Source: Eledone cirrhosa
Lineage: Eukaryota
Assembly: GCA_964016885.1 (NCBI GenBank)
Contig: OZ024742.1
Coordinates: forward strand, 284,518,001 to 284,582,000
Reading direction: 5' to 3'
DNA length: 64,000 nt
Part shown: piece after piece, positions 10,273 to 10,916 of the stretch
Layout: each line of letters begins with the position of its first letter
Numbering within the stretch: the stretch's first letter is position 1
Made by a program: the position numbers and the translations under genes
The notes under the pieces: generated by a model
The model's input: the letters and a program-made list of their open reading frames with translations, nothing else
Told to the model about the DNA's origin: nothing
Database searches by the model: none

Positions 10273-10659
10273 TACGATATTAAATAAATGGAAATTATAT
10301 TTATAAAACCATATTTATTTCATTATATATATTTCAGGGATATCATATTAACAATATGTTATGCCTTCTTCAGACAAAATACAATATAGACAGTCTTATA
10401 AATAAATAGATTTGACATACCTTTCAACATCGACTTGCATTTGAAAAGTTGATTTGGCAGTATTTTGTCTGAAGAAGGCATAACATATTGTTAATATGAT
10501 ATCCCTGAAATATATATAATGAAATAAATATGGTTTTATAAATATAATTTCCATTTATTTAATATCGTAAATATACTCCAAATACTTGTTGAGTGCTTTT
10601 ATATTAGTTATAAATATTTACTCGTTGTAACCCAACAATTTAAATATAACTTTCCATGT
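10273..10659. mobile_element. PLE-type inverted-repeat mini-element (family B) in (TA)n
   Basis: 110-bp arms 10273-10382 and 10460-10569, a ~90-bp extension on the right, (TA)n on both sides, and an HHR in each arm. Confidence 0.8.
10461..10526 (+). ncRNA. Minimal type I hammerhead ribozyme (family B); antisense twin in arm 10273-10382
   Basis: TATTTTGT-CTGAAGA-AGG-C-ATA...TAT-C-CCT-GAAA-TATATA-TA-ATGAAATA. 8-bp stem I with 2 GU pairs. Confidence 0.75.
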
Positions 10660-10849
10660 ATATATATATATATATATATATATATATATATATATATATA
10701 TATATATATATATATATATATATATATACACACACACACACACACACACATATATATATATGTGTGTGAGTGTTGGGGAAATAACTTACTACCACTACAG
10801 GGATTGAAGATTCAAGACATTAGGGCTATGTCTTATAACCAATCTCTTA

Positions 10850-10916
10850 TATATTTTATCTGATGAAAACGTACTGAAACACCATTGTACCTTTGAAATA
10901 TGTATAATAAAATATA
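10850..10916 (+). ncRNA. Minimal type I hammerhead ribozyme (family B)
   Basis: TATATTTTAT-CTGATGA-AAA-C-GTAC...GTAC-C-TTT-GAAA-TATGTA-TA-ATAAAATATA. Perfect 10-bp stem I. Confidence 0.8.

What the first reader, a model, noticed from the sequence alone, without database searches (positions are those of the whole stretch)
10461..10916. Hammerhead family B: covarying stem II with an invariant C-C mismatch, palindromic stem III and AUA triplet
Seen at independent, diverged loci: after CUGAnGA come three pairs, a C-C mismatch, then more pairing. The pairs are AGG/CCT (10476), AAA/TTT (10867), AAG/CTT (47550 and its twin), AAT/ATT (62547), GTT/AGT (62891) and degenerate TGT/ATT (9107). Stem III is a 6-nt (near-)palindrome (TATATA, TATGTA, TACGTA, TGATCA) and the triplet is always AUA. 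Stem I differs in sequence but pairs wherever its 3' strand is present. Established: palindromic stem III allows minimal HHRs to cleave as dimers; canonical HHRs usually have G10.1-C11.1 and GUH triplets. Inference: a selected, AU-rich structural variant in which the C-C mismatch has a tertiary, metal-binding or protein-binding role. I do not recall it being described but cannot check.
Basis: partly seen in the sequence, partly recalled or inferred. Interest (0 to 1): 0.78.

Follow-up and report, generated by a model that had tools for sequence, protein, structure and literature searches.

The report
Penelope-element hammerheads with conserved C·Y mismatch
About 120,000 copies of a hammerhead (predicted self-cutting RNA) motif lie in this animal genome, belonging to Penelope-like jumping genes, and they keep one unpaired C opposite a C or U while the base pairs around it change, which likely makes a weak ribozyme that would cut only with help from a partner copy or the element's own protein.

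Summary
The motif is real. It is the type I hammerhead in the pseudo-LTR of one subclade of Hydra-clade Penelope-like retrotransposons (PLEs); the window copies are short non-coding fragments. A large family has C·U, small families have C·A or a G-C pair, and some C·C families have an AUC triplet. The loci are related by descent, not independent. Still, C10.4 persists across families whose RT proteins are only 52-58% identical, while all neighbouring pairs covary. G-C or C-G copies (1,307) occur at about the decay rate of catalytic C3 (381), and no large family has them. All mismatch types cost the same predicted energy, so base identity appears to be selected. Palindromic helix III, AUA and loss of G10.1-C11.1 have published precedents; the C·Y mismatch was not found in the papers I could read, but the closest paper (Lünse 2017) was unavailable. 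Cleavage is untested. Verdict: new variant of a known kind.

The parts
10462..10525 (+). Type I hammerhead, focal copy: helix I 10462-10468/10519-10525, core 10469-10475, proximal helix II 10476-10478/10504-10506, C10.4 at 10479 opposite C11.4 at 10503, GAAA 10507-10510, palindrome 10511-10516, predicted cleavage after 10518
10460..10661 (+). Fragment of a Hydra-clade PLE: pLTR hammerhead, tail and 5'UTR, stopping about 45 nt before the start codon
   Evidence: 97.5% identical to 1436-1638 of the full unit L517, whose ORF starts at 1682
10267..10462 (-).
10523..10528 (+). AATAAA hexamer (putative poly(A) signal) just after the predicted cleavage site, overlapping helix I
   Evidence: present in 16 of 24 families
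10575..10596 (+). Conserved ACTC..GAGTGC hairpin; most genomic copies end just 5' of it (putative RT start landmark)
10659..10728 (.). (TA)n run at the end of the insertion (also 10231-10274 at the other end)
10850..10916 (+). Second hammerhead, related subfamily; C10.4 at 10870, C11.4 at 10891, predicted cleavage after 10906; AATAAA 10906-10911 straddles the cleavage site
9091..9159 (+). Degenerate copy with a mutated core, one letter short; intact family copies have the normal core
46243..46307 (-). Hammerhead copy, inverted twin of 47533-47597
47533..47597 (+). Hammerhead copy with a short duplication of helix III and helix I 3' strand behind it
62540..62605 (+). Hammerhead copy that runs into (TA)n exactly at the predicted cleavage site, lacking the helix I 3' strand
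62874..62945 (+). Hammerhead copy of a distant family

Best explanation
This is the pseudo-LTR hammerhead motif of a subclade of Hydra-type Penelope-like retrotransposons, and its conserved C10.4·Y11.4 mismatch is likely a base-specific switch that leaves the ribozyme predicted to be weak alone, so that it would cleave only when assisted. Shown: the anatomy, the carrier element, the copy numbers, covariation around the mismatch, and retention of C10.4 across diverged families. Inferred: (1) the mismatch isolates three weak junction-proximal pairs (predicted 3.3-7.1 kcal/mol less stable than a G-C pair in 11 of 12 families), and helix III is unfavourable in a monomer (+2.9 kcal/mol); (2) the two pLTR copies of one transcript would pair through the 8-nt palindrome to give the dimeric active fold; (3) the element's RT-EN protein would recognise or stabilise the C·Y site and license cleavage, as the protein-dependent Anolis PLE hammerhead suggests; (4) slow cleavage would let uncut RNA be polyadenylated at the adjacent AAUAAA, translated, and copied from the hairpin 50-70 nt downstream, which fits copies ending 40-60 nt beyond the cleavage site.
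For: 83,347 C/C matches against 29 control; C10.4 in 113,402 of 119,896. G-C 765 and C-G 542 against 381 for the core change C3 to G. About 46 of 48 AUC-family rows are C·C in a search with no constraint at these sites (counted by eye). Flanking pairs covary. Six mismatch types fold within about 1 kcal/mol of each other in 10 of 12 families, so stability alone does not pick C. Full units with hammerheads at both ends: L517, L530, L159. C·Y families form a clade on the RT tree, 95/95. Monomer helix III penalty. AATAAA in 16 of 24 families against shuffle mean 2.8, maximum 9. 76 of 88 (TA)n-ended copies stop within -1..12 nt of the hairpin. PMC11167929: a PLE hammerhead cleaved only with the element protein, and RT started internally at a stem-loop.
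Against: No cleavage, binding or expression data. The partner varies (U in a family of roughly 25,000 copies by the listing, A in a small one), and a 3-copy family has a G-C pair in 3 of 3 copies, so the mismatch is not required for this helix III type. A second Hydra lineage in the same genome and the 26 published Hydra hammerhead rows lack it. All carriers share one ancestor, so conservation is one history, not repeated events. Only three C·Y lineages are on the RT tree. The hairpin lies 40-60 nt from the end of helix I and the hexamer ends about 40 nt before the copy ends, longer than the usual poly(A) spacing (recalled, 10-30 nt). In the Anolis study, hammerhead cleavage was not needed for insertion in vitro.
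Confidence: 0.5

Rival explanations
1. The C·Y site makes an RNA-only tertiary contact or metal or proton site (for example with helix I in the gamma fold) that raises activity, replacing the loop-loop contact that these hammerheads lack.
For: Base-specific retention of C10.4 at a fixed distance from the core while helix II length varies from 13 to 39 inner bases. Position relative to helix I matters in other natural hammerheads (PMC3088659 passages).
Against: No invariant partner is visible in helix I: positions 1.1-1.6 and 2.1-2.6 all vary. Published PLE hammerheads were slow in vitro even as dimers (PMC4209133).
Confidence: 0.2
2. Plain attenuation: any mismatch at 10.4 would do, and C persists through inheritance from the ancestor.
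For: All mismatches cost about the same; C·U and C·A families exist; weak helix II gives slow hammerheads elsewhere (PMC13725137 passages).
Against: Every neighbouring position has changed letters between families (entropies 0.8-2.0 bits), yet no large family has a non-C at 10.4: non-C/non-C 2,236 with control 556, and the listed rows are mutated C·U copies or chance.
Confidence: 0.13
3. The C is kept for a non-catalytic use of the same hairpin (RT or EN binding for packaging or priming, or a structure in the cDNA strand); cleavage is incidental or absent.
For: Copies extend past the cleavage site (101 of 113 (TA)n-ended copies at +40 to +69); hammerhead cleavage was dispensable for Anolis PLE insertion in vitro.
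Against: The whole catalytic core and the NUH triplet are kept in all 22 aligned representatives (partly by the search pattern). G·U pairs are frequent on the sense strand, which favours a sense RNA fold.
Confidence: 0.13
4. No selection: the shared C-C is only sequence copied among recent transposon copies.
For: All copies are related; most are probably inactive fragments.
Against: Families differ by 42-48% in RT protein and have unrelated flanks (mean between-family alignment score 0.05 against 0.62 within), with compensatory changes on both sides of the mismatch.
Confidence: 0.04

Closest known systems
Hydra-clade PLE hammerheads (Craig et al. 2021, PMC8557442, File S2; includes Hydra-1_oBim of Octopus bimaculoides)
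   Same: Same carrier clade, 3'/pLTR position, (TA)n insertion, type I fold with short near-palindromic helix III, frequent U·U at 10.1/11.1, frequent A17.
   Different: None of the 26 Hydra rows (25 families) shows three pairs plus a C·Y mismatch; their helix III begins with C at 15.2 (here U in the pattern searched); helix II is mostly shorter. Units here are 3.3-3.7 kb against mostly under 3 kb.
Metazoan PLE minimal hammerheads (Cervera and de la Peña 2014, PMC4209133)
   Same: Palindromic 15.2-16.2 region, dimer model, long helix II, opposite-strand pairs 100-700 bp apart, many sequence families per genome. The D. willistoni row of Fig. S3 reads as a 6-nt palindrome with AUA and U·U at the helix II base (my reading of extracted text).
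   Different: Their consensus has a bulged base after A9 and G10.1-C11.1; none of the 56 rows of Fig. S3 shows the C·Y mismatch. Their descriptor (unbroken helix II, loop up to 10 nt, gaaannuh) would not retrieve these motifs.
Anolis Poseidon (PAc) hammerhead (Frangieh et al. 2024, PMC11167929)
   Same: PLE hammerhead followed by a tail; copies end downstream of the cleavage site at a stem-loop.
   Different: Different PLE clade; shown to be protein-assisted in vitro; ORF starts inside the ribozyme; no C·Y mismatch mentioned in the parts read.
Axolotl retrozyme hammerheads (PMC7229834)
   Same: Similar copy number (126,247); one family has a conserved U·U mismatch at the helix II base.
   Different: Canonical hammerheads with loop-loop contacts in short tandem non-autonomous repeats.

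Membership tests
Type I hammerhead ribozyme | CUGAnGA, GAAA and NUH core | tested here: met
   H17 is A or C
Type I hammerhead ribozyme | Three helices supported by covariation | tested here: met
   rows are related and were filtered for some pairing
Type I hammerhead ribozyme | Match to a curated Rfam hammerhead model | tested here: not met
   0 matches at gathering score in the window; the E-value mode was not run
Type I hammerhead ribozyme | Self-cleavage after N17 | not testable with these tools
   no RNA holder listed
Canonical (extended) hammerhead | 4-bp helix II with loop-loop contact to helix I | tested here: not met
   helix II is long and variable, no conserved loop letters
Cervera min-HHR consensus | Bulged base after A9 and G10.1-C11.1 | tested here: not met
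   no bulge in the covarying register; G-C at 10.1/11.1 in 6 of 24 families
Cervera min-HHR consensus | Palindromic helix III region, unstable as monomer | tested here: met
Hydra-clade PLE | Single ORF, RT then C-terminal GIY-YIG-like EN | tested here: met
   intact 798-aa ORF from the first Met in L530; L517 has one frame break. Pfam and PDB gave no RT or EN match; the call rests on motifs and comparison by eye with published Hydra proteins
Hydra-clade PLE | RWK motif and DKT in place of DKG | tested here: met
   RW followed by I or R, and DKT; K itself is not kept
Hydra-clade PLE | CxCX5C linker, CxxC and CxH, no CCHH | tested here: met
   read from the alignment
Hydra-clade PLE | Insertion into (TA)n; tandem and inverted pLTR layout | tested here: met
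   113 of 198 copies end in (TA)n within 90 nt; inverted 5' copy in L159 and L517
Hydra-clade PLE | Short unit, generally under 3 kb | tested here: not met
   3,334, 3,709 and 3,747 bp between hammerheads; the paper says 'generally'
Hydra-clade PLE | Placement with reference Hydra elements on an RT tree | not tested
   published reference proteins were not available as tool sequences; the tree used four unnamed homologues
Non-LTR retrozyme | Short non-coding head-to-tail tandem units each with a hammerhead | tested here: not met
   in the loci examined, copies are dispersed or inverted pairs, and full units encode RT-EN

The most novel reading that the evidence does not exclude
The C10.4·Y11.4 mismatch is a protein-read switch that makes this a natural protein-gated hammerhead: the element's own RT-EN binds it and times cleavage against an overlapping poly(A) signal and a downstream RT-start hairpin, a three-part RNA control module kept in about 120,000 genomic copies.
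Probability: 0.25. Interest if true: 0.78.

Novelty: new variant of a known kind. Interest (0 to 1): 0.5.

Why it matters
What PLE hammerheads do is open: they cut poorly in vitro, and one needs the element's protein. Here one conserved, non-core position comes with natural alleles (C·C, C·U, C·A, G-C), intact carrier ORFs and a sister lineage without it, so the question can be tested by single-base swaps. The adjacent AAUAAA and RT-start hairpin give a concrete model of how cleavage, polyadenylation and priming compete. It also shows a large hammerhead class that published descriptors and Rfam gathering scores miss.

Tried and rejected
Rfam at gathering score: 0 matches. Protein-led scan of viral contigs: no relative. 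RNA evidence: no RNA holder listed; reads laid were DNA-like contigs of one study, 2 of 4 runs, uninformative on cleavage. One search's count (35,287) was discarded because a second GAAAT in the tail of one family inflates it; (2,919, control 2,185) showed no family with another base at 15.2 among 100 listed rows. Pfam and PDB sequence searches gave nothing for the ORF. Single-copy folding z-scores were weak (-0.2 to -3.4). Co-folding two copies paired the helix II arms, not helix III, so it says nothing on the dimer. An alternative register with a bulged base after A9 was considered and pairs worse (slid controls). Template-switch repair of the mismatch was considered; G-C and C-G copies are only 1.4-2 times the core control, so it is not needed. 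Two rows on the EN tree (L520_3053, L042_4605) are nested-insertion artefacts and were ignored. No earlier findings of the scan were returned. Lünse et al. 2017 was not held.

Full report
OBSERVATION. The cited loci are present. The pattern core + three bases + C ... C + three bases + GAAA + TNNNNA + TA matches 7 places in the window, with 0.00 expected from 100 shuffles. A covariance model built from 22 representatives finds 8 copies at E<1e-5, adding the degenerate copy at 9091-9159. Rfam reports nothing at gathering score.

GENOME-WIDE COUNTS. The genome has 3.0 Gb. With the core and TNNNNA-TA fixed, the four classes at 10.4/11.4 are C/C 83,347 (control 29), C/non-C 30,055 (control 155), non-C/any 6,494 (control 637) and, within the last, non-C/non-C 2,236 (control 556). 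The total is 119,896: C10.4 in 94.6%, C·C in 69.5%. These are exact-pattern counts, so decayed copies are missed, and a few matches are double-counted through a second GAAAT in one family's tail. Only the first 100 rows of each search are listed. The C/non-C rows are mostly one family with C·U. Watson-Crick versions number 765 (G-C) and 542 (C-G); the listed rows are scattered across families and include some unrelated hits. The control change of catalytic C3 to G gives 381. So paired versions sit at 1.4-2 times the decay of a core base and no large family has adopted them. In a search with no constraint at either site and an AUC triplet (8,485, control 1,663), about 48 of 100 listed rows belong to this motif and about 46 of them are C·C (counted by eye).

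COVARIATION. From 280 own-genome loci (many picked by searches for non-C·C copies, so not a random sample), 198 copies passed a filter that required U15.2-A16.2, three helix I pairs, two helix III pairs and four of seven helix II pairs. They were clustered into 24 families at an arbitrary threshold. C10.4 is the majority in 19, tied in 2 and absent in 3 (the G-C family and two single copies). Pairs 10.2, 10.3 and 10.5-10.8 are formed in 19-23 of 24 families with shuffle p at or below 0.0006; 10.1/11.1 in 19 of 24 (A-U 7, G-C 6, G·U 5, U·U 4; p 0.04). On the 22-row alignment, 14 of 16 pairs change on both sides, and 19 of 22 rows are unpaired at 10.4/11.4. I chose C·C copies for some rows and left out four of the 24 medoids, so that last count is not evidence of conservation. 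Relatedness inflates shuffle tests.

CARRIER. Full units have a hammerhead before and after one ORF, with an inverted copy at the 5' end in two of three: L159 (3,334 bp), L530 (3,709 bp, intact ORF) and L517 (3,747 bp, the focal subfamily, one frame break). Window 10460-10661 is 97.5% identical to the 5' part of L517, and no piece of the ORF lies in the window. The proteins show RW, DKT, a CxCX5C linker, a GIY-YIG-like domain, CxxC and CxH and no CCHH, the Hydra-clade features given in PMC8557442 section 11, and resemble the published Hydra-1_Obim protein motif by motif (by eye). Pfam and PDB searches were blank; four unnamed homologues were found. On an RT tree of 13 rows, the three C·Y lineages with RT sequence form a clade (95/95) apart from a Hydra lineage of the same genome whose hammerhead lacks the mismatch (L518, 33-41% identity); the EN tree adds three more lineages with weak support, 81/64. 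RT identity between C·Y families is 52-58%. The host lineage was not determined; the Obim-like family suggests a cephalopod (inference).

SURROUNDINGS. Copies do not usually end at the cleavage site: of 198, 113 reach (TA)n within 90 nt, 101 of them at +40 to +69 and 2 within 10 nt. AATAAA lies within N17..+30 in 16 of 24 families, against 1 of 24 further down, 0 upstream and a shuffle mean of 2.8; in several families it straddles the scissile bond. Copies that run on (53 of 198) enter an ACTC..GAGTGC hairpin, mostly at +50 to +73 (0 of 198 on the opposite strand), and 76 of 88 measurable (TA)n-ended copies stop within -1 to 12 nt of it.

MECHANISM. Folding energies put a G-C pair 3.3-7.1 kcal/mol below C·C in 11 of 12 families, and six mismatch types within about 1 kcal/mol of each other in 10 of 12. 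Closing helix III in a monomer costs 2.9 kcal/mol, while the 8-nt palindromes self-pair at -2.2 to -10.5. The motif is therefore predicted to be weak alone, and stability does not explain why C is kept. PMC11167929 reports that the Anolis PLE hammerhead cleaved only with the element protein, that uncut RNA was the insertion substrate and that RT started at a downstream stem-loop. I infer a protein- or dimer-assisted ribozyme in which C10.4·Y11.4 is read by base identity (0.5). Rivals are an RNA tertiary or metal site (0.2), plain attenuation (0.13), a non-catalytic use (0.13) and no selection (0.04). None of these was tested by experiment.

KNOWN WORK. PMC4209133 (main text parts 1-2 of 4; supplement parts 1-3 as extracted text, figures not seen): minimal PLE hammerheads, dimer model, bulged base and G10.1-C11.1; its D. 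willistoni row reads as a 6-nt palindrome with AUA; no C·Y mismatch in 56 rows. PMC8557442 (passages, section 11, supplement parts 2-3 of 59 and searched passages): 26 Hydra hammerhead rows, none with this mismatch. PMC11167929 (parts 1-2 of 4). Passages only: PMC7229834, PMC6765202, PMC3088659, PMC13725137, PMC6155905; bioRxiv 10.64898/2026.07.22.740005 part 1 of 5 and passages (supplements not seen). Eight literature searches listed no description of a conserved C·C or C·Y in helix II; the three papers were seen as listings only. Lünse, Weinberg and Breaker 2017, the largest survey of PLE hammerhead variants (recalled), was not held and could already contain it.

VERDICT. A real, selected variant of a known ribozyme in a known transposon clade, with a very large copy number and a testable non-core conserved base. 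New variant of a known kind; interest 0.5.

Noticed in passing
window 10575-10596; L517, L159 and others: An ACTC..GAGTGC hairpin of nearly fixed sequence in at least 11 families marks where (TA)n-ended copies stop; similar GCTC..GAGCAC hairpins are visible in two published Hydra consensus sequences (by eye). Likely the RT start landmark.
   Followed up: partly
window 10523-10528 and 10906-10911: AATAAA directly after or across the predicted cleavage site in 16 of 24 families; cleavage would remove or split it.
   Followed up: partly
L518:518 and 5149; L519, L520: A second Hydra lineage in the genome with an unbroken 8-bp helix II, a mismatch at 10.1/11.1 and helix III like published Hydra-1_oBim; a natural control without the C·Y site.
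   Followed up: partly
L113, L163, L164: Three diverged copies of a rare family with the same helix III type but a G-C pair at 10.4/11.4; no ORF found nearby.
   Followed up: partly
L463, L464, L521, L523: An amplified AUC subfamily whose proximal helix II is U·U, G-C, A·A, C·C: only one canonical pair next to the core.
   Followed up: no
window 9373-9484 (+): A different hammerhead-like motif with a branched helix II of about 85 nt (predicted -40.6 kcal/mol), a GAAG in place of GAAA and a loopless palindromic helix III.
   Followed up: no
window 585 (+) and 343 (-); 50135 (+); 58944 and 58476 (-): Other hammerhead-like motifs, the first an inverted pair with a bulged G after the core as in published minimal PLE hammerheads.
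   Followed up: no
window 49495-50175 (-): 226-aa open frame resembling a PLE GIY-YIG endonuclease with Cys and His motifs, unlike the Hydra type; a near-identical copy lies in L528.
   Followed up: no
window about 853-8800: Tandem array with a 615-bp period, at least 13 copies by self-BLAST.
   Followed up: no
window 14838-18124 (+) and 29861-34990: Two LINE-like elements with AP-endonuclease and RT frames (by eye).
   Followed up: no
window 62605; L043:4787: Rare copies stop at or one base after the predicted cleavage site; at 62605 the TA-rich helix III merges with (TA)n. Could be cleaved-RNA insertions or priming by microhomology.
   Followed up: no
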